41,194 nt of DNA from a virus (Duplodnaviria > Caudoviricetes): IMG/VR virus record IMGVR_UViG_3300036784_000035, positions 1 to 41,194 of that record; one strand, 5' to 3'. Position numbers and translations under genes: made by a program. Of the stretch, positions 2,397 to 12,771 are shown piece by piece. Within the stretch, counting starts at the first letter, position 1. Every line of letters starts with the position of its first letter. The notes below the pieces were generated by a model. The model made no database searches and had not been told where the DNA came from. It saw only the letters and a program-made list of their open reading frames with translations.

Positions 2397-2655
2397 CTAT
2401 CTCGTATTCAGTGTCGAACATGGCTCTTGGTGGGGACCGGAGCGGTGCGGCTATGTCACCAGCATCGGCGCGGCAGGTCGCTACAGCGAGGCCGAAGCGC
2501 TGGACATCTGCACGAATGCGATCCCAGGCACGTCGCGCCGGCTTGGCGCGTTGCCGGAACTGCCGGTATCGGAGACGCATGTGACGTGGCTGCATCAACG
2601 GTTCCGGGGCAGCCTCCCGAACATACCTCCGGAGCCGTGGGAGCCAACCGTTTGA
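2386..2655 (+). CDS. Hypothetical phage protein (YLVFSVEHGSWW..GY...AGRYSEAEA)
   Basis: GAGGAG SD before ATG 2386; stop lies inside array-A repeat. Confidence 0.75.
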   Translation: MADSYLVFSVEHGSWWGPERCGYVTSIGAAGRYSEAEALDICTNAIPGTSRRLGALPELPVSETHVTWLHQRFRGSLPNIPPEPWEPTV

Positions 2656-2666
2656 AGGAGTGGCCG

Positions 2667-2852
2667 ATGTCCGATGACTACAACCAGGCGGTCTTCGACT
2701 TCATCGTGGCCCTGCGCGGCGGGCTGCCGGAACAGTGCGACTTCTGCGGGAAGCCCTACACCGAGGGGCGCTATCCGGTTCCAGAGGAAGCCGGCGAGTG
2801 GGCGTGCAGCGAATGCCTGGCGCGCTGGAATACAAAATCACAGGGTGCGTGA
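2667..2852 (+). CDS. Small Zn-finger-like protein (CDFC...CSEC)
   Basis: AAGGAG SD in repeat; two CxxC pairs. Confidence 0.7.
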   Translation: MSDDYNQAVFDFIVALRGGLPEQCDFCGKPYTEGRYPVPEEAGEWACSECLARWNTKSQGA

Positions 2853-2877: not shown

Positions 2878-3117
2878 ATGAGTCTGAACTGTGACCACGA
2901 CAAGCCGATGTGCCCGTGGCGAACCTGGGCCGTCGCGGAGTTGTCGCGGCTGAGCACGCTGGAAGCGGAGATTTTCGCGGTGCAGTTGCCGGCGTGGTCC
3001 TTCCAGCCAGACCGGGATGCGGCGCCTGGGCTCTACCTGGCATGCGAGACCCACGAGCAGCGGCGCGCAATCATGCGACTGCTGGGCGCCGAGCAGGAGC
3101 AGGTCGAGACCGTTTGA
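2878..3117 (+). CDS. Hypothetical protein
   Basis: Starts in one repeat copy and ends (TV-stop) in the next. Confidence 0.65.
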   Translation: MSLNCDHDKPMCPWRTWAVAELSRLSTLEAEIFAVQLPAWSFQPDRDAAPGLYLACETHEQRRAIMRLLGAEQEQVETV

Positions 3118-3128
3118 AGGAGTAGCCG

Positions 3129-3317
3129 ATGCCTGACGACGACGCTCTTCGTCACAAGCTGATCGCTGACCTGTTCGATCTGCCCATTTGGTATTGCGGC
3201 ACAGAGCGTCGAGTGAGCCCGTGCTGGGAGTCGATCACGGTAGAGGAACGCGACCTGATCGCAGAGGCGCTGAAACAGTGGAAGCCTGGCCGCAATTTAC
3301 AATCAGACAAAGGCTGA
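3129..3317 (+). CDS. Hypothetical protein
   Basis: AAGGAG SD in repeat; MPDDD start. Confidence 0.7.
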   Translation: MPDDDALRHKLIADLFDLPIWYCGTERRVSPCWESITVEERDLIAEALKQWKPGRNLQSDKG

Positions 3318-4029: not shown

Positions 4030-4045
4030 CGTGAAGGAGTGGCCG

Positions 4046-4228
4046 ATGCCTGACGACCACCACTACCCCGACCGCTATCCGCCGGGCGCGCACTGGGCCT
4101 TGGATGCTGCCTGGGAGATCCTCGACACCATCAAGCCGGGTGTCATTCCCGACGACGTCCGCGCATTCCTCGCCGGCCAGATCGCGGGGCGCCTCATGAG
4201 AGAACGCGGGGGAGTGGCCGATGCCTGA
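4046..4228 (+). CDS. Hypothetical protein
   Basis: AAGGAG SD in repeat; MPDD start. Confidence 0.7.
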   Translation: MPDDHHYPDRYPPGAHWALDAAWEILDTIKPGVIPDDVRAFLAGQIAGRLMRERGGVADA

Positions 4229-4433
4229 CTACCGGAGATATCGACGCACGCAGATCGCGGAGATGAAGCCGTGGGCTGCTGGCGAGGACATGCGGGAGGT
4301 GTCCGTATCCAAGCCCGACCAGGAGGCGGGCTCGCCCAGGTCCGGCGACATGATAGCCCGCAACCCGGCGAACCACGCTGACCGCTGGCTGGTCTCGGCG
4401 GCGTATTTCGCGGCCAACTTTGAGCCGGCCTGA
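4221..4433 (+). CDS. Small conserved phage protein (GDMIARNP..H.D.WLV...YF..NFE; PGDYG-like)
   Basis: Repeat-embedded SD/ATG; recognisable C-terminal motif. Confidence 0.75.
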   Translation: MPDYRRYRRTQIAEMKPWAAGEDMREVSVSKPDQEAGSPRSGDMIARNPANHADRWLVSAAYFAANFEPA

Positions 4434-5110: not shown

Positions 5111-5518
5111 TTACTTCGGCTGTGCGGTCAGCGGCGGCGCGACCGTGACGGGTCCGATGCCCGGATAATTCACCACGATGTATGGCGGCGGTTCGATCGG
5201 CTGCACCGGCCATCCGCCACTACCAGCCGGAGGAGGCACCGGGGTCGTCGGGTCACCCGCGTTCGGCGGCGACGGCGGCGTCAGGCTTGGCGGCACGTTC
5301 GGCGGATAGATCGGGCCGCCGCCAACGACGGGCGGGATCGGGTGCTCGGGATGCCCAGGATACCACGGCGGCAGCGGTGCGCCCCCACCGGGCGGCATCG
5401 GACCACCGCCGACGCCGATCCCGGTCAGGGAAGCGTCGCCGATCAGCACGACCTGCTGCGTGGTGCGGTTGAGTTTGTCGTAAAGCACGCCCGAGATGGT
5501 CACTTCAGCGGCTGCCAT
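5111..5518 (-). CDS. Pro/Gly-rich protein (HPEHPIPP) at head of lysis module
   Basis: GGAG SD; short beta-rich N-terminus followed by a long Pro-rich tail. Confidence 0.75.
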   Translation of the reverse strand: MAAAEVTISGVLYDKLNRTTQQVVLIGDASLTGIGVGGGPMPPGGGAPLPPWYPGHPEHPIPPVVGGGPIYPPNVPPSLTPPSPPNAGDPTTPVPPPAGSGGWPVQPIEPPPYIVVNYPGIGPVTVAPPLTAQPK

Positions 5519-5654
5519 GAGTCAGTCTCCATTGGGTTGTGTGTGTGCCATCGATTTGGCTCGGGGATTGTATCGCCGCGCGATGGCGTCGCGGCGGGTG
5601 GTTCTGTGACGATTGTGCTGGACTCTCACGGGGTGGTGGTGCACATCCGCACCT

Positions 5655-5789
5655 ATGGAAAGCCCACGAATGAGTGTGACTTTTACCGCCGTGCAGCTGG
5701 CGTGGCTGAAGCGCGAGGCCAAGCGCCTTGGCGTGACGATTGGCGATCTGCTGCGCAGGATCGTCGATGAGTTCCGGGACACGAAGTGA
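5655..5789 (+). CDS. Ribbon-helix-helix (CopG/Arc/Mnt-like) regulator, 44 aa (not in ORF track)
   Basis: MESPRMSVTFTAVQLAWLKREAKRLGVTIGDLLRRIVDEFRDTK: beta strand, helix, G, helix; inverted repeat GGTGC-N6-GCACC just upstream. Confidence 0.8.
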   Translation: MESPRMSVTFTAVQLAWLKREAKRLGVTIGDLLRRIVDEFRDTK

Positions 5790-5796
5790 CTGAAGC

Positions 5797-5858
5797 GGGC
5801 CGGGCGGTGCGTCAACACCGTAGACCGGCCCTGACCCCAACCGAGAGAGGAAGTCTCG
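5797..5858 (+). promoter_or_regulatory. Leader hairpins between RHH gene and lipoprotein gene
   Basis: GGGCCGG-G-CGGTG-cgtcaa-CACCG-taga-CCGGCCC, and CGAGA-gaggaag-TCTCG enclosing the SD. Confidence 0.5.
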
Positions 5859-5861
5859 ATC

Positions 5862-6185
5862 ATGGCTACCAAGACACTAGCAGCCGCATTGGCTGCAACA
5901 CTACTGGTGACTGGCTGCACGATGCCCAACTTCGTCCCGGCACACGATCAGAGCATTGAGGAAGCCGCTGGGGCTCGCCTCGAATGCACGGCGATCTCCG
6001 AGGGCATGACGCCCCCGGTACAGGGCGGCTTTATTGCTGCCAGCGGTCGGCCGGCGTTCGTTGGCGCTGCGATGGGCGGTTACGCGATCGGCCTCGCCAT
6101 CGCCGCGGCAGTCCAGCAGCAGCACAAGGTCGATGCATATTCGGATTGTATGCTCGCTCACGGGTTCAGAAAGGCTGCGTCATGA
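5862..6185 (+). CDS. Lipoprotein with glycine-zipper-like segment (moron; candidate superinfection exclusion)
   Basis: Signal peptide with LVTG/C lipobox; GAAMGGYAIG; C-terminal CML.HG. Confidence 0.8.
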   Translation: MATKTLAAALAATLLVTGCTMPNFVPAHDQSIEEAAGARLECTAISEGMTPPVQGGFIAASGRPAFVGAAMGGYAIGLAIAAAVQQQHKVDAYSDCMLAHGFRKAAS

Positions 6186-6493
6186 GCGATATGAGCGGCG
6201 CCGTCCTATCTGCGATTGCACAGTTGGGTTCTGATCTGCGCGGCGAGATCGAAAAGAGCCGGGCCGAGACAGCGCGTCTGATCGAGGGCATCCAAACGTC
6301 GCTTGACGCGATCCGCGACGACATCACGGTGCTGGGCGGAACGGGCGATCGTGATCGCCGGAAGGGCGAGAACACCCGCGATGAAGTGCGCGATTTGGCG
6401 AACGGCGTTGCTGATCTCCAGCGCGTGATGCTCAAACACGGCACGCGCCTTGATGCGCTGGAGCGGCGTGGCGCGATCGATAAGGAGGGGTGA
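6182..6493 (+). CDS. Coiled-coil hypothetical protein
   Basis: ATGA coupling; heptad repeats. Confidence 0.7.
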   Translation: MSDMSGAVLSAIAQLGSDLRGEIEKSRAETARLIEGIQTSLDAIRDDITVLGGTGDRDRRKGENTRDEVRDLANGVADLQRVMLKHGTRLDALERRGAIDKEG

Positions 6494-6795
6494 CGGTGGA
6501 CGACCGCGAACTGTTGGCCAACATCCTAAATCTTTACGGGCCACCGCTGCCCATTGATCCAACGAAGGACTCGACGAAGGGTTATTTCAGGCCGGATGGC
6601 TACTATGTGCCACCGTCAGCTACCGACACGCCTTGCCAGGTACCGGCGCGCCTGCTGCGACCGCTGCCGCCGCCACACATTCCGGCAATCAACTGGCGGG
6701 AGGCATTGGATATGCTAAGGCTCTTTCGTCTGTTCGCCCTGACGACGGTCATTATCGTCGTGCTTGGCTACCTGGTCAGCTACCTGACCAGCTAA
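6490..6795 (+). CDS. Small C-terminally anchored membrane protein, convergent with ejection gene (sieA-position; carries a motif copied from the ejection protein)
   Basis: AAGGAGG SD; C-terminal TM helix; DSTKGYFRPDGYYVPPSA motif. Confidence 0.75.
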   Translation: MTVDDRELLANILNLYGPPLPIDPTKDSTKGYFRPDGYYVPPSATDTPCQVPARLLRPLPPPHIPAINWREALDMLRLFRLFALTTVIIVVLGYLVSYLTS

Positions 6796-9700
6796 GGCGG
6801 ATTGAGTGCGCTGGGGGGCCGCGTCGGATTGAGCGCGTTGAGTTGCGGCGGCGTCGAGAGCAGTCGCTGTTTCGCCACAGCCTCAGCCTGCGCCGCCCTC
6901 GTCATGCGACCTTGGCGCCTTACCTGTTGCACAAGCGGACGCGCGACCTGGTAGGCCCCCACCGCTCCCTCAGCCAGCGGCAGCCCGAGATGTGCCGCCA
7001 CTGCATGAGCGCCCACCATAGCGCCCGTGTGCAGAATGTTTCCCAGCGCCCCACCGCCTTTCTCCGCTGCCCGGCTCAATAGCTGCACTGTCGGCGATCC
7101 TGGCACCGCCGCCTGATCGTGCAGCAGCTTGCGCGCAGCCAACTCGTTGCGGGTGTTAATGACGTTCTGGATCTGATCATCAGTCAACGACTGCGCTAGG
7201 TTGAACTTGGTATCGCCCAGGCCCTTGTGGATGTCCTCCAGCATCTGATTGACCCTGGGCAACTGAAGCATCCCATCACTGCCGGTGAGTTTCTTGCTGC
7301 CTCCCTGGTAGCGCTGTAGGAAGCGCTGCTGATTAATCGGCTGCGAGAAGTCGCTATAGGCTTGCCGGTATGCCCGAAACTTCGGCGCCCCCGATTGGAT
7401 GGTATTCCTCACCTGGTCTTGCAGGTCACGCAGCACGAACTGCGCCACCTGTGCATCGCTGCCTTCACGGTCGAGCGGCCGGGCCGCCTTGTTCAGCAAA
7501 TCGCTGATGTGCTGGTCAACCCCGTAGAGCTTGGATGGCATCGTTTCCAGATTGCCCTGGCTGTCATAGAGCTTCGCCTTCACGTTGTTGAGGGTGCGTT
7601 CTACCGCGTCGCGCTTGCCTTCCGCGCTGTCGAGCACGTTGTTGATCTTAGTCTCGATCGGCTGGGCATTGACCGGCCGCTCGCCATCGAAGGCACCGAA
7701 CTGATCGGGCGCCACATTCCGCCGATCTTTCCGCAACTGGTCGAGGGTAATCTCGTCGCCCGCATCGGCGCGAAGATTGTCCACCATCCCGCTGTTGCGC
7801 GCAGTATCGTGCGCATCGTATGCCGCTTTGTAAGCGGGGTCGGTGTTGTATGCATATTTATGGGTTAGTGAAGCGTCAGTATCGAAGTCGCGCTGTGCCA
7901 TGACGCGCGGCGGGATGTTGTCGACGTACGTGCTGTCATCCCGCAGGCTCGTGCCGGCCCGATCCTTGGCGCTCTCGTTGATCGCGACGCGAAGATTGCG
8001 GGCGCGCTCCACGTTGGTCTGTGCCGGAATGTCCCCTGGCGCTGTCGCCGCCGCACCGGCTGCCTGTGGCCGCGGGGCCTCGTCCGCCGACATCTCCGGC
8101 CCGGCTGCAGCTTCAGCAGCAGCGCTTGGTGCTGCGGCCGTCCGCGCCTGCCTCTGTGCCGCGTAGTAATTCTGCGCGAACTGATCGAAGTCGGCGCGCG
8201 TCGCGATGCTGCCGCTGTCCATTGCCTGCTTCGCAGCGACCAGCACAGGAGATGGCTTGCCGAATTCAGTCGTGTCACCTTTCTGAAGTTTGTCCCACCA
8301 CATCTGCCGCAGGTTGTCGCCGATGGCTTGGGCCGCACCGCCGAGATTCTGTAGCCCCGTCGTGCCGTCTTGCGACGGTGCGCCTCTGGCTTCTCTGGCC
8401 TGCCTGATCGTCTCGGCTGACGACCGCAACCGTGCCTCCAGATCAGCCTGCGCCGCGGCTTCCCGCGCTGCCTGATCGGGATTGAGCGCGCTCGCGGCGG
8501 GGCTTGGTGTGGGTCGATCGGCAGCCGCCGCCGCGTCAGAACGCTTGATGGCGCCCGTGAGGTCTTCGACCGTGATTGGCTGCGCCAGCTTCGTGCGGGC
8601 GGCCTGTGCTGTCGGCGGGTCCAGCGGATGGAACTCGCCGCCCCCGGTGGGGAACGCCTCGGGCAGCGCGGCGACGTCGCGACCCAACTGCGGGTTGATC
8701 TGACCGACCGCCGAGCTGACCGCCTCCTGTCCGCCACGGAAGATCGCACCGCCTAGTTGAGCAAGCGGGTTGACGATGTAGCGCCCAAGCGGGACGCCAC
8801 CCGGCGCCCACTCGTCGACGCCTGGTATGCGCGAACCTTCAAAGCCTTCGCGCGCCGCATCGAGGATGTTCGTGCTGCCGGGCGTCGGCCGCGGCATGAT
8901 CGGCAGAATCTTCTCGGGATCGAATTGTGCCGCCTGCTCCTTCGTCGGCATGGCCTGCGGCGGCACGTAGTTTCCATCCGGCCCGAAATAGCCCTGCGTC
9001 GGATCGGGGGGCGGCGCTGCCGCTGCCGTAGCTGGCGGTACCACGCTCTTTGGTGCCGGCGGCAGCATGGACAACGGGCTGTCAGATTGCGGCCCCGCCG
9101 CTGCCGGCGCGCTGCCTTGCGGCGATGCCGAAGTCACGGCAGGAGCGGGCGGAAGCAGCTTCAGGGGATCGTCGTCTGCCGTGGGCTTTGCGGACGCTGT
9201 GGGCATCGGTGGGGCCGTTGCTGCTGGAGGAGCGGAAGATGCGGCGGGCGACACCACGGACCCCCGGAGCGTCTTGTAGCCGGCGCCCGTGGGGTGGACG
9301 CCATCAGGCCCCATCTGATCGGTAGGGAGTGGCTGGAACCTAATGCCGTACTTCCCGGCCAGCGCTTGCAGCGCGTCGTTGGTGCCTGGGTTCTTGGTCT
9401 CGATCCCCGGCCCGACACCGAGCAACGTCACATTGCCGGCGCCGCCTTGCTTCAGGTTTTGCAACTGGCCTTCGACGTTGGTCATGTCGCCGGGAGCATT
9501 GGACGCGCCGGAGGACAACACCACGTCGCGGCCCTGATAGGCGTTGTTGCGCACACCAGCGCCGATTACCGAGCGAATCGCCCCCGGATTGGCCCCGACC
9601 ACGCCGGAACCGCCAAGCCCACCAGGGGACGCGAGGCTGTCGCCAATGATAAGCGGCGGCTGCGATGGAGGCTGTGCTGGAGGCGAGGGCGAAGCATCGG

Positions 9701-10100
9701 TCGCCGTGCCGGTGTCCGCCTTGGCGAAACGCTGGTAATTCGCCGTCACGCCAGGGACGTAGTTCTGGCTTTCCCGTCCATAGGAACCACGCCAGCCAGG
9801 GCCGCCGTGATAGTAGAGCAGCGCCTTTTCCGGCGAACCCTCGGCGTCCAGCGCCGTATTCAGATACTTCGCAGCGCCATAGATCGATTGCACCGGGTCA
9901 TTTAGATCGGTCATCCCGAGCGTCTGGCCAGTGCCCGGCATAATCTGCATCAGGCCGCGCGCGCCCGCTGGACTAACCGCACGCGGATTACCGCCGCTCT
10001 CCTGTGCTGCGACCGCCTTTAGCAGCGTCGGGTCAACGTTCCACTCGGTCCCGGCAGCCTGAAAGATCGGATCATACTGCGAGAGGTCGGCGTCAGCCAC
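6792..10100 (-). CDS. Large DNA-ejection protein (P22 gp16 position) with N-terminal lytic transglycosylase and SGNH hydrolase domains
   Basis: AVAAQESGG.P.AVSPAGARGLMQIMP (SLT); GDS/G/N/DGVH (SGNH); likely GTG start at 10100 overlapping the upstream stop. Confidence 0.85.
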   Translation of the reverse strand: MADADLSQYDPIFQAAGTEWNVDPTLLKAVAAQESGGNPRAVSPAGARGLMQIMPGTGQTLGMTDLNDPVQSIYGAAKYLNTALDAEGSPEKALLYYHGGPGWRGSYGRESQNYVPGVTANYQRFAKADTGTATDASPSPPAQPPSQPPLIIGDSLASPGGLGGSGVVGANPGAIRSVIGAGVRNNAYQGRDVVLSSGASNAPGDMTNVEGQLQNLKQGGAGNVTLLGVGPGIETKNPGTNDALQALAGKYGIRFQPLPTDQMGPDGVHPTGAGYKTLRGSVVSPAASSAPPAATAPPMPTASAKPTADDDPLKLLPPAPAVTSASPQGSAPAAAGPQSDSPLSMLPPAPKSVVPPATAAAAPPPDPTQGYFGPDGNYVPPQAMPTKEQAAQFDPEKILPIMPRPTPGSTNILDAAREGFEGSRIPGVDEWAPGGVPLGRYIVNPLAQLGGAIFRGGQEAVSSAVGQINPQLGRDVAALPEAFPTGGGEFHPLDPPTAQAARTKLAQPITVEDLTGAIKRSDAAAAADRPTPSPAASALNPDQAAREAAAQADLEARLRSSAETIRQAREARGAPSQDGTTGLQNLGGAAQAIGDNLRQMWWDKLQKGDTTEFGKPSPVLVAAKQAMDSGSIATRADFDQFAQNYYAAQRQARTAAAPSAAAEAAAGPEMSADEAPRPQAAGAAATAPGDIPAQTNVERARNLRVAINESAKDRAGTSLRDDSTYVDNIPPRVMAQRDFDTDASLTHKYAYNTDPAYKAAYDAHDTARNSGMVDNLRADAGDEITLDQLRKDRRNVAPDQFGAFDGERPVNAQPIETKINNVLDSAEGKRDAVERTLNNVKAKLYDSQGNLETMPSKLYGVDQHISDLLNKAARPLDREGSDAQVAQFVLRDLQDQVRNTIQSGAPKFRAYRQAYSDFSQPINQQRFLQRYQGGSKKLTGSDGMLQLPRVNQMLEDIHKGLGDTKFNLAQSLTDDQIQNVINTRNELAARKLLHDQAAVPGSPTVQLLSRAAEKGGGALGNILHTGAMVGAHAVAAHLGLPLAEGAVGAYQVARPLVQQVRRQGRMTRAAQAEAVAKQRLLSTPPQLNALNPTRPPSALNPP

Positions 10101-11820
10101 CGAAGACCTGCTTGATTGCGCTGCCGACTTGCTTCTTTGCCTCGCTGTCGAGTGAGTTCCAGTAAGAAGTTCGCTGTTCATCCGTCATGCGAGCGAGTTG
10201 GAAGGCCCGAGGATCAAGCCCGGCGATACTGGTCTGGAAACCCTGGTAGTCGGACTTCGACGGCCAGGCACGGGCCGCAGCGGCACGAGCCCGCAGGTAA
10301 TCCGCGTTGCCCTGCAGCGAGCGGATGATGAAGTCGGCACCTTCCGGCGACAGGCTGGAATGCGGGTTCGCGGCTTGGTTGACACCCATCCGATAGTCGC
10401 TGTTCGCGCCCTGCGTCTGCGCCAGCTGTGCGGCTACCTTGTCGAAGCTTTCCTGTGCAGCTACCTCGTCCGGCTTGATGCCAAAGCGGGCCGCTAGTTG
10501 TGGCGCCCAGGACACCGCTGCGCGTTTCCAGTCCAATGTCTTGCCGGCGCCGCTGCCGCTCTGGAACCGGCCCAGGTCGGATAGCATGGTGCCGAGTTGG
10601 GACAGCTGCCCTTGCGCCGCAGTATCGCTGTCGCTCTCTGCCTGGAACCGCGGCCCGGCCTCTTTCATGGCCTCTGCTTCGCCGGGCGAGGCCGTTGCTC
10701 CTACTGGCCGTGCAGCGGTGGCCACCGGAGCGACAGCGGGCCTGGGTGGCGGCGTAGGAACCGGCGTAGTGGCAGCAGGGGGCGGCGCCTGGGCAGGAGC
10801 GGGCGACGCAAACGCCCCACCACCGAAAGGACTGGCCGGCGTGACTGCGGGAGGAAGCGTTGTAATGGCGGGAGGCGTAGTGGTCGCTGGCGGCGTAGTT
10901 GTCGGCGGTGTCGTGACGACAGGCGGTGGCTTGTTCGGATTTTGTAGCGCTGGCGGTAGCCGCCCGCTGCCAAGCGGCCCCCCCTGCGCCGGCTGCCCGG
11001 AGGGGGTGAGTTTGGCTGGATCGACGCCGTGCGCGGTCAGATATTCCTGCCGCGTCATCGGTATAGTTCCGCCATAATTCGGATTAGTCTGGCCGTTCGG
11101 CAGCGTCTTGTTGAGGTCGGGAACCTGCACCGTCTCGTTCAGCCACTCTGGCGTCGGCCCCACCGGCACGGCTGTCCCTGACGTAGTGATGCCGCCGCCC
11201 TTCCTCGCCGGCAACTGGGTGCCACCGACGATTCCGGTGCCCTGATTGATGTTAACACGATCGCCGGACTGACTGCTGATCTGTGCGCCTGCATCGAGCG
11301 CGCGCTGCTGATGCTGGCTCGCCCATACCTTGATGCCGGCAGGATCTTGCGGAATGTTCTGCACCTCGCGCTGAAACTGCGCCGCCGTCATGCCGCCGCC
11401 CAGCAGCACCGAATGCATCGCGGTGATCGCGTCGGCCTGCGTCGGATTGTCCATATCCAGCAGCGCGCCCGCCGCGTGATTCACCAACCCGATCGTCTTG
11501 ACGTTCTGGTTCAGCTGGTCGGAACTGATGTTCTGCACATTCGCAAGGCCAGAGCCAGCCGCCAGCGCCGCTCCTGGCCCCGCTTGGTTCAGCAGCGCGC
11601 GATAGCGGTTAGCATCGAACTCGCCGGTATCCGGATTGATCGCGCCTTGGTACGCCTGCCCGGAGAGTTGGTTGGCCTGCTGCTGGCGGATCGCCCAGAT
11701 GTTGCCAGCCGCCTGAGCCGCCGCTCCGTAGTCCGCGACCGGATTGACTACGCTGGGATGCGCGAGCGCGTTCAGCACATTGCCGCGGCCCACCTCAGAC
11801 TGATATGCGCCTAACGACAT
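10093..11820 (-). CDS. DNA-ejection (internal virion) protein, gp20 position
   Basis: Q/A/G-rich helical protein with Pro/Thr linker; synteny. Confidence 0.7.
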   Translation of the reverse strand: MSLGAYQSEVGRGNVLNALAHPSVVNPVADYGAAAQAAGNIWAIRQQQANQLSGQAYQGAINPDTGEFDANRYRALLNQAGPGAALAAGSGLANVQNISSDQLNQNVKTIGLVNHAAGALLDMDNPTQADAITAMHSVLLGGGMTAAQFQREVQNIPQDPAGIKVWASQHQQRALDAGAQISSQSGDRVNINQGTGIVGGTQLPARKGGGITTSGTAVPVGPTPEWLNETVQVPDLNKTLPNGQTNPNYGGTIPMTRQEYLTAHGVDPAKLTPSGQPAQGGPLGSGRLPPALQNPNKPPPVVTTPPTTTPPATTTPPAITTLPPAVTPASPFGGGAFASPAPAQAPPPAATTPVPTPPPRPAVAPVATAARPVGATASPGEAEAMKEAGPRFQAESDSDTAAQGQLSQLGTMLSDLGRFQSGSGAGKTLDWKRAAVSWAPQLAARFGIKPDEVAAQESFDKVAAQLAQTQGANSDYRMGVNQAANPHSSLSPEGADFIIRSLQGNADYLRARAAAARAWPSKSDYQGFQTSIAGLDPRAFQLARMTDEQRTSYWNSLDSEAKKQVGSAIKQVFGG

Positions 11821-11838: not shown

Positions 11839-12771
11839 TTATTGGTTCGGCCCGTAAGTCCCAGGGGGCAGTTGTGAGAATGCGCCTTGCTGATAGGCGG
11901 CATTGTTGAAGCCACCCATCTGCGAGCCTCCAAACGTGTTCTGGTTCCCCAGCAGCCCCTGCAGCGCGTTGTAGGACAGATAGCTGTTGACGCCCGACGT
12001 GGCCGCGTTGCCTACGCCCGCGGTGCCCGCCGCCTGCGCCTGCCCCGCCTGCGTCAGATAGTTTCCCGCCTGCCCGGCGCCCGTCGCGAGGCTGGTGCCG
12101 ATCTGCCCGCTGGCCGCGCTCCCGGCCTGTCCGGCCCCCGCAGAGGCGTTCTCGCCCAGGTTCGCGATATTGGCGAACTGGCTGTACTGCTGCTGCTGCG
12201 CCTGCTGCGCGGTGCTGGCCAGATTGATCTGTCCCGCGCTCTGGTTCATCACGTCCTGCCACGCGGTCTGCGCATTGTTGAACTGGTTCTGATAATTGCT
12301 ATCCGCGAGGCCCGTGGCGAAAGTCGCCGCGCCTTTGAGTGACGCTCCCGATACCCCGAGTCCGCGCGCTGCTGCAGCCACCTGTGTCGCTTTCAGTCCC
12401 TGCGCCAGCTGGAACTGATAGCCGGGCGTATTCTGGAGATCGGCCTCGGTCATCACCGAGGGCGGCGTCATGCCGGCCGCCTGCTGCTGGTAGGCACCCG
12501 CCTGGGCGAGATATGGGCTGGCAGCTGATGGCGCGGCTGCGATGTTCTGCAGCGGGTTGAGTGCATTCCACCCGGCTTGTATGTCCGGTCCGAGCCGCCC
12601 GACCGTCTGGTTGTAGATCTGCTGCTCGTTGGCAATGCCGGCATACGTCGCCTGCAGCGACTGCCCCGCCGCGCTCTTGGCGGCCGACGACGACTTGCCG
12701 GAGCCGAGCAGGCTGGAGCCGGCGCCGAGCGCGGCGCTTCCGGCAATCGCGCCCCCGATGAGTGCAGGCAT
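11839..12771 (-). CDS. DNA-ejection/pilot protein, gp7 position
   Basis: N-terminal GGAIAGSAALGAG glycine zipper; PGYQFQL.QG...AAARG..SGA motif. Confidence 0.8.
   Translation of the reverse strand: MPALIGGAIAGSAALGAGSSLLGSGKSSSAAKSAAGQSLQATYAGIANEQQIYNQTVGRLGPDIQAGWNALNPLQNIAAAPSAASPYLAQAGAYQQQAAGMTPPSVMTEADLQNTPGYQFQLAQGLKATQVAAAARGLGVSGASLKGAATFATGLADSNYQNQFNNAQTAWQDVMNQSAGQINLASTAQQAQQQQYSQFANIANLGENASAGAGQAGSAASGQIGTSLATGAGQAGNYLTQAGQAQAAGTAGVGNAATSGVNSYLSYNALQGLLGNQNTFGGSQMGGFNNAAYQQGAFSQLPPGTYGPNQ

What the first reader, a model, noticed from the sequence alone, without database searches (positions are those of the whole stretch)
6568..9005. Membrane protein carries a copy of an 18-aa motif from the phage's own DNA-ejection protein: decoy-type superinfection exclusion?
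Seen: 6568-6621 (+) encodes DSTKGYFRPDGYYVPPSA and 8952-9005 (-) encodes DPTQGYFGPDGNYVPPQA, with 13/18 identity. Several conserved residues use different codons (GAC/GAT, GGT/GGC, GGC/GGA, TAT/TAC, CCA/CCG, GCT/GCC), which points to selection on the peptide rather than a recent DNA duplication. In the ejection protein the motif sits in an otherwise disordered Pro/Ala linker, as a short linear binding motif would. The small protein has a C-terminal TM anchor and lies convergent to the ejection gene at the sieA position. Inference: the resident phage displays a membrane-tethered mimic that blocks the host receptor or poisons assembly of the incoming ejection channel, and the pair would co-evolve as a specificity lock.
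Basis: partly seen in the sequence, partly recalled or inferred. Interest (0 to 1): 0.82.

Follow-up and report, generated by a model that had tools for sequence, protein, structure and literature searches.

The report
Phage membrane protein copies ejection hairpin
A small gene for a predicted membrane protein in an uncultured phage, sitting where phage P22 keeps its entry-blocking gene, carries an 18-residue copy of a predicted hairpin from the neighbouring DNA-injection protein and is likely a decoy that would hamper related phages, but this is untested and relatives show no phage-by-phage lock.

Summary
Observation confirmed: 13/18 residues, 41/54 bases; best 18-mer score 74 against a maximum of 60 in 1000 shuffles. 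Synonymous sites between the copies are near saturation (7/13 identical codons, 5.8 expected), so the peptide was kept, not the DNA. The 99-aa tail-anchored gene is real (RBS and start kept in relatives). It occupies the sieA-like slot, which holds a convergent membrane gene in 31/34 related loci (controls 21/378). The motif is a predicted beta-hairpin in a disordered linker of the gp16-like protein and occurs in 5/58 ejection proteins. The 'specificity lock' is not supported: a foreign ejection protein matches as well (95 vs 91), only 1/42 slot proteins has the motif, and own-partner ranks are at chance in a fresh set of 16. The genome has no integrase, and the copy is predicted to face the cytoplasm. 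Best reading: a SieA-position exclusion protein using a captured ejection-protein hairpin as a family-wide decoy (0.35); partner unknown, complex prediction not run. The scan noted this kind of mimicry in at least eight other genomes; my five literature searches found no paper on it.

The parts
6482..6488 (+). Shine-Dalgarno AAGGAGG of the small gene
   Evidence: sequence; kept in relatives X2-X4 although upstream DNA differs in X2 and X3 (loose ends)
6496..6795 (+). 99-aa tail-anchored membrane protein in the sieA-like slot
   Evidence: (cluster of 4 including the window's own); no family hit in PHROGs, Pfam, NCBIfam, PADLOC; no remote homologue
6556..6579 (+). 12-nt tandem duplication (DPTK/DSTK) at the start of the copy
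   Evidence: sequence
6568..6621 (+). copy of the ejection-protein hairpin motif (residues 25-42); core G29-S41 unchanged in relatives
   Evidence: strands at 30-31 and 37-38 in the model, pLDDT about 55
6721..6786 (+). predicted C-terminal transmembrane helix, Arg75 and Arg78 before it, no charge after it (N-in predicted)
   Evidence: positive-inside rule (established knowledge)
6792..10100 (-). gp16-like DNA-ejection protein, 1102 aa (longest ORF 1129 aa from 10181)
   Evidence: position after gp7-like and gp20-like genes, phrog_342 hit; fold matches to phage proteins with lytic domains, none significant in PDB
8952..9005 (-). hairpin motif in the ejection-protein linker (residues 393-410 of the 1129-aa ORF)
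   Evidence: same motif in 5 of 58 ejection proteins
9051..9083 (-). second tandem 'docking' peptide DSPLSMLPPAP (not clearly copied in the small protein)
9141..9173 (-). first tandem 'docking' peptide DDPLKLLPPAP; its type tracks the type of the gp20-like tail across loci, by eye
9765..10064 (-). SLT lytic transglycosylase domain of the ejection protein
   Evidence: PF01464 E 3.6e-23
10093..11820 (-). gp20-like ejection protein, 575 aa (candidate partner, untested)
   Evidence: position between gp7-like and gp16-like genes; alignment A6
11839..12771 (-). gp7-like DNA ejection protein
   Evidence: phrog_598 E 6.7e-17
5670..6493 (+). rest of the reverse-oriented cassette: RHH-like gene (5670-5789), predicted lipoprotein (5862-6185), coiled-coil protein (6182-6493)
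   Evidence: labels from sequence features, no significant family hits

Best explanation
The 99-aa gene sits in the sieA-like slot, encodes a predicted inner-membrane protein and carries an old copy of a predicted hairpin of the gp16-like ejection protein; it is likely an exclusion protein that would use this copy as a family-wide decoy, competing with ejection proteins of related phages for the hairpin's unknown partner. Shown: the copy, its excess over chance, the saturated synonymous sites, the conserved slot. Inferred: descent from an ejection gene, purifying selection, expression apart from the late operon (reverse cassette with an RHH-like gene), N-in topology. Untested: exclusion, binding, the partner. 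With the copy facing the cytoplasm, the step hit would be on the cytoplasmic face of the ejection channel or during loading of ejection proteins into new virions, not at a periplasmic receptor. With no integrase, it would act in infected rather than lysogenic cells.
For: 13/18 match, score 74 vs null max 60 of 1000. 7 of 13 identical codons vs 5.8 expected from codon usage; 4 of 5 residue changes are single-base, including the non-conservative R/G, Y/N and S/P. G29-S41 unchanged in 3 of 3 runs and in P0001 and P0007, while residues 42-71 change at 8 positions; K28Q in X3 equals the ejection residue (one contig, depth 2). Motif in 5 of 58 ejection proteins, and another hairpin-like DEYG motif in 12 of 58; ordered island in the model. 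Slot holds a convergent TM gene in 31 of 34 loci vs 21 of 378 control positions and in 16 of 19 fresh loci. P22 SieA lies in this slot, is an inner-membrane protein, and escape maps to gp16 and gp20 (PMC10883804). Other slot proteins with ejection-like pieces: L063 copies its own GYTD repeat (0 of 150 shuffles, rank 1 of 24; 1 of 14 tested); L059 and L001 match their own C-terminus best (rank 1 of 36, L001 tied).
Against: Most slot proteins carry no ejection-like piece: 0 of 16 fresh ones exceed own z 2.0, so mimicry is not needed for the slot's job. Motif in only 1 of 42 slot proteins; no remote homologue to show co-variation. The resemblance of N-terminally anchored slot proteins to ejection C-termini (8 of 9 at z>=1.6; controls 3 of 52) did not repeat in 3 of 3 fresh single-pass proteins (z -0.3, 1.0, -0.6). 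In the relatives the whole N-half is quiet, synonymous sites too (2 synonymous sites in codons 1-41), so invariance is not specific to the motif. The pattern is a generic hairpin: 19 of 22 viral matches lie in unrelated proteins. In the ejection protein the hairpin lies next to the SLT domain, probably periplasmic after ejection, on the other side from the predicted copy. No integrase (0 of 4 relatives searched).
Confidence: 0.35

Rival explanations
1. SieA-like exclusion through the membrane helix, with the hairpin as raw material from the gene's origin that is kept only as a folded spacer, not as a decoy.
For: The commonest slot family (multi-TM, also unannotated in Acetobacter phage phiAX1) has no ejection-like piece; the TM helix is nearly invariant; the alignment to the ejection linker runs on loosely for 57 columns (37%), as expected if a whole chunk was captured.
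Against: Only the hairpin kept 72% identity while synonymous sites saturated; flanks decayed.
Confidence: 0.22
2. A self-directed accessory: the protein engages the same host or phage partner as the native hairpin for the phage's own benefit, for example closing or clearing its own ejection channel after entry, with any exclusion a by-product.
For: No integrase in the genome or in 4 of 4 relatives searched, so expression would be in infected cells; own ejection protein ranks first by z; N-in topology fits a step after entry.
Against: Four other phages have the hairpin in the ejection protein, and the three with a readable slot gene have no copy, so it is not required; the slot's hypervariability is more typical of defence genes (own knowledge).
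Confidence: 0.2
3. Independent origin: both proteins use a common G-x-F-x-P-D-G-x-Y-V-P hairpin in Pro-rich surroundings, and the likeness has no functional link.
For: The pattern occurs in unrelated viral proteins (19 of 22 matches); codon identity is no higher than chance given the residues.
Against: Only 22 stretches in 2.9 million viral contigs match the core, yet two lie in adjacent genes here; the match extends to D-x-T before and PP-x-A after the core; 4 of 5 differences are single-base.
Confidence: 0.12
4. The two copies are inverted DNA repeats for an inversion that swaps the ends of the two genes in frame, or for an RNA hairpin in a read-through transcript.
For: They are an inverted repeat, in frame in both genes.
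Against: 76% identity with synonymous sites saturated; no recombinase found; no strand-changing joint among those listed, and single contigs of run X1 span each copy (contigs drop rare variants).
Confidence: 0.04

Closest known systems
Phage P22 SieA (Leavitt et al. 2024, PMC10883804; read: abstract, sections 7, 13, 14 part 1, passages)
   Same: Gene directly after the gp16-like gene in a P22-like morphogenesis cluster; membrane protein without signal sequence; candidate target the ejection proteins.
   Different: SieA has 162-164 aa, three TM helices and an FxRYPxEAxxFNK motif and is expressed from a prophage; this protein has 99 aa, one C-terminal TM, no such motif, and its genome has no integrase. 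The parts of the paper that I read report no copy of an ejection-protein peptide in SieA; SieA types 24% alike exclude the same phages, which also argues against a lock.
Tab (PMC10884400) and Tai (PMC11364771), prophage defences that block virion tail assembly (abstracts only)
   Same: Small phage-encoded defence aimed at a structural step of related phages, acting in the cytoplasm, as an N-in copy would.
   Different: They block tail assembly and come with counter-defence genes; no sequence link to this protein was tested or found, and the abstracts do not mention mimicry.
HK97 gp15, TP-J34 Ltp, Tuc2009 Sie2009 (as described in PMC10883804); T4 Imm (recalled)
   Same: Small membrane proteins that block DNA entry, with escape in the conduit proteins; T4 Imm acts in a lytic phage (recalled).
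   Different: Long-tailed or contractile phages; no sequence similarity found.

Membership tests
SieA (P22 types A-C) | gene position directly after the gp16 homologue in a P22-like cluster | tested here: met
   slot conserved
SieA (P22 types A-C) | sequence similarity, FxRYPxEAxxFNK motif | tested here: not met
   motif absent from the sequence; no family hit; no homologue beyond own cluster
SieA (P22 types A-C) | three or four TM helices, 160-200 aa | tested here: not met
   one TM, 99 aa
SieA (P22 types A-C) | expressed from an integrated prophage | tested here: inconclusive
   no integrase, resolvase or recombinase domain; HTH repressor-like and ParB-like genes present; expression not testable
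SieA (P22 types A-C) | blocks DNA injection; escape in gp16/gp20 | not testable with these tools
   needs host and phage
   95 foreign vs 91 own; ranks near chance in 25 and 16 other slot proteins; no diverged homologue of this gene exists in the searches to show co-variation
   the tandem LLPPAP peptide tracks the tail type by eye; the hairpin is in 1 of 6 LLPPAP-type proteins; LLPPAP-like bits in the small protein p=0.21
P22 gp16-like ejection protein (large ORF) | last of three ejection genes after the tail genes, with a muralytic domain | tested here: met
   no sequence or fold link to P22 gp16 itself was shown

The most novel reading that the evidence does not exclude
Phages of this group build exclusion proteins by capturing short pieces of their own ejection genes (linker hairpin here, N-terminal repeat in L063, C-terminal helix in L059 and L001) and hanging them on a membrane anchor. 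The copies act as dominant-negative decoys against kin, and each copy marks a binding step of the ejection machine that is not yet known.
Probability: 0.3. Interest if true: 0.8.

Novelty: new variant of a known kind. Interest (0 to 1): 0.5.

Why it matters
How SieA-type proteins block DNA entry is open: the P22 study says it is hard to see how the contact is kept across such diverse ejection proteins. A membrane protein that displays a copied ejection-protein peptide gives a concrete, mutable handle of 13 residues, and the copy points to a functional motif in a linker that looks like filler. If the decoy works, self-peptide mimicry would be a mechanism of phage exclusion that my searches did not find in print. 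This case alone is a single gene cluster of an uncultured phage without co-variation, so it adds an instance and a correction (no lock, internal hairpin, no integrase) rather than proof.

Tried and rejected
Homologues of the small protein: only its own cluster; Atlas hits all under 0.9. Kinship with the C-anchored slot proteins of L063 and L067: not significant (E 0.15 and 2.7), so the label 'family III' in my scripts is by architecture only. A second copied piece (LLPPAP-like): p=0.21, rejected. General own-partner matching: 7 of 25 in the top 4 of 39 (threshold chosen afterwards) but mean rank 17.9 vs 20, and 27.0 vs 29.5 in the fresh set, rejected. C-terminal mimicry by N-anchored slot proteins: seen in the first set (family assigned by eye, members related), not repeated in 3 fresh ones; left open. 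Inversion: rejected. Genome collection with the ejection alignment: nothing. PDB fold search: no match at E<=0.001. Promoter scan: no sigma-70-like site on the + strand of 5300-7200. Expression: no RNA holder listed. Complex of the small protein (1-66) with the gp20-like C-terminal domain: not run, the queue was full, so no verdict. Rows left out: 9 loci that were false hits or duplicates; L002, L077 and L010; the window's own pair fell below the repeat threshold and was tested; of 39 loci, 10 were duplicates and 10 had no complete ejection gene.

Full report
Setting. The window is a whole 41.2-kb phage genome with a terminal repeat. It has a P22-like morphogenesis cluster on the minus strand: terminase, portal, scaffold, coat, head closure, tail fibre, then a gp7-like ejection gene (phrog_598), a 575-aa gp20-like gene (by position) and a 1102-aa gp16-like gene with an SLT domain. 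A GcrA gene, the nearest cultured relative Acetobacter phage phiAX1 and an Acetobacteraceae bin among five genome loci point to an alphaproteobacterial host. The runs that hold the DNA are soil metagenomes. No tyrosine integrase, resolvase or serine recombinase domain was found in this genome, nor a tyrosine integrase in 4 of 4 relatives searched (one more was not held).

The observation. The best ungapped 18-mer score is 74; 1000 window shuffles gave mean 32 and maximum 60. It is the strongest non-terminal DNA repeat in the genome and one of 7 ORF pairs at E<=0.01 among 362 ORFs, the others being the terminal repeat, HNH and HTH paralogues and two weak pairs. Identical codons number 7 of 13, against 5.8 expected from codon usage alone, so synonymous sites are close to saturation, while 4 of the 5 residue changes are single-base steps. 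I read this as an old DNA copy kept by selection on the peptide (inference).

The small gene. It starts at GTG 6496, 7 nt behind AAGGAGG; relatives in three runs keep the site, one with ATG, and show no indels in the parts covered. Codons G29-S41 are unchanged in 3 of 3 runs and in P0001 and P0007; residues 42-71 change at 8 positions. The caveat is that codons 1-41 show only 2 synonymous sites and one replacement (K28Q, to the ejection residue, in one contig of depth 2), so the quiet is not specific to the motif. One TM helix closes the protein, with two arginines before it and no charge after it, and the first 43 residues hold no hydrophobic window above 0.4: N-in is predicted, which puts the copy in the cytoplasm. 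The model shows an N-terminal helix, a low-confidence hairpin at the motif and the TM helix. There is no homologue outside a cluster of four and no family hit.

The motif in ejection proteins. In the model of the ejection protein it is a two-stranded hairpin with pLDDT about 76 between stretches under 50. It occurs in 5 of 58 related ejection proteins, and a DEYG-type hairpin-like motif in 12 of 58 (alignment), so the linker often carries such an element. It is also a generic pattern: of 22 viral matches to the DNA pattern, 3 are ejection proteins, 13 belong to one unrelated 115-aa family and 6 to other proteins. It is not the type-specific peptide. The tandem peptides near the front of each ejection protein (LLPPAP here) sort, by eye, with the type of the gp20-like tail (lead from earlier notes), whereas the hairpin occurs with four tail types and in 1 of 6 LLPPAP proteins. 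LLPPAP-like stretches in the small protein are not significant (p=0.21).

The slot. A reverse-strand ORF with a TM helix ends at or near the ejection gene's stop in 31 of 34 loci, against 21 of 378 control positions, and in 16 of 19 fresh loci; phiAX1 has an unannotated one, followed by Arc-type repressors. P22 keeps sieA between genes 16 and 9 (PMC10883804, section 13). The slot proteins fall into several unrelated groups (grouped by eye).

Test of the lock. In 26 slot proteins against 39 ejection proteins only the window's stands out (own z 8.9, score 91), and the foreign P0003 does as well (z 8.6, score 95); the other 25 average rank 17.9 against 20 expected, with 7 in the top 4 (mean computed by hand from its table). 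In 16 fresh slot proteins none exceeds own z 2.0 and the mean rank is 27.0 of 58 against 29.5. The hairpin is in 1 of 42 slot proteins. Targeted tests found scattered cases: L063 copies its own GYTD repeat (1 of 14 tested; 0 of 150 shuffles); nine N-anchored proteins resemble pooled ejection C-termini (8 of 9 at z>=1.6, against 1 of 15 other slot proteins and 3 of 52 control ORFs), with the own partner ranked 1, 15, 4, 4, 1, 31, 16, 25, 23 of 36; three fresh single-pass proteins did not repeat this. So capture of ejection pieces seems to recur in a minority of slot genes, without a general lock.

Mechanism. Most likely (0.35): an exclusion protein, expressed from the reverse cassette 5670-6795 apart from the late genes (inferred from orientation), whose hairpin competes for the partner of the native hairpin in phages that share it. 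Rivals: exclusion by the TM helix alone (0.22), a self-directed accessory (0.2), convergence (0.12), inversion or RNA pairing (0.04; no listed joint changes strand and X1 contigs span both copies). The complex prediction with the gp20-like domain could not be run, so the partner is open.

Literature and novelty. It works like SieA by position and membrane location but fails membership on size, topology and sequence (PMC10883804: abstract, sections 7, 13, 14 part 1 and passages read; supplements not seen). Five searches (listings only, apart from the three papers named) showed no paper on exclusion by a copied ejection-protein peptide; the library lacks most subscription journals. The scan's own notes list the same kind in at least eight other genomes, some with reported co-variation; these are unchecked and not counted as evidence. 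Verdict: real feature, new variant of a known kind, interest 0.5.

Noticed in passing
L001-L121 (ejection gene pairs); window 9051-9173 and 10093-10300: The tandem peptide near the front of the gp16-like protein sorts with the type of the gp20-like C-terminal tail in at least six groups (LLPPAP, KxQxxxEL, DDLxKR, GPWExY, DAEVFG, IQAQL), suggesting a docking pair (by eye; more types).
   Followed up: partly
L063:2138-2470 (-): C-anchored slot protein carries GYTDEQM, matching its own ejection protein's repeat GYTDAEL, with 12 identical bases.
   Followed up: partly
L059:4876-5127 (-), L001:8904-9074 (-), L003:7184-7489 (-): N-anchored slot proteins resemble ejection-protein C-termini: KQHLLSQKLPATP vs own KQRLLSQGGPANP; RMHEMLY vs own RMREMLY; RGMQMLYP identical to the foreign L042.
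   Followed up: partly
L082, reverse strand between about 9900 and 10200 (phiAX1, LC644973): Unannotated multi-TM ORF of about 90 aa of the commonest slot group, directly after the ejection gene of a cultured phage: a testable SieA-position candidate.
   Followed up: no
window 8931-8998, run X2 record 11: A joint that goes back 68 bases may mean a tandem second copy of the hairpin region in a relative's ejection gene; not resolved.
   Followed up: no
window 9260-9660 (-): The ejection protein has a second, SGNH/GDSL-like domain after the SLT (GDS motif; Pfam Lipase_GDSL only E 0.053), shared with L001; relatives swap in other wall-degrading domains or none.
   Followed up: no
window 2647-2684, 3109-3143, 4032-4063, 4211-4233: Four related 23-35 nt direct repeats at the starts of small early genes.
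   Followed up: no
whole window; G001-G004: P22-like genomes with a repressor-like HTH pair here but no integrase found; lifestyle unclear.
   Followed up: partly
L001:9082-9360 (-), L004:7744-7980 (-): Small secreted proteins made of short repeats (IGQFTYGSDG-like, RQMGST-like) in the same reverse cassettes.
   Followed up: no
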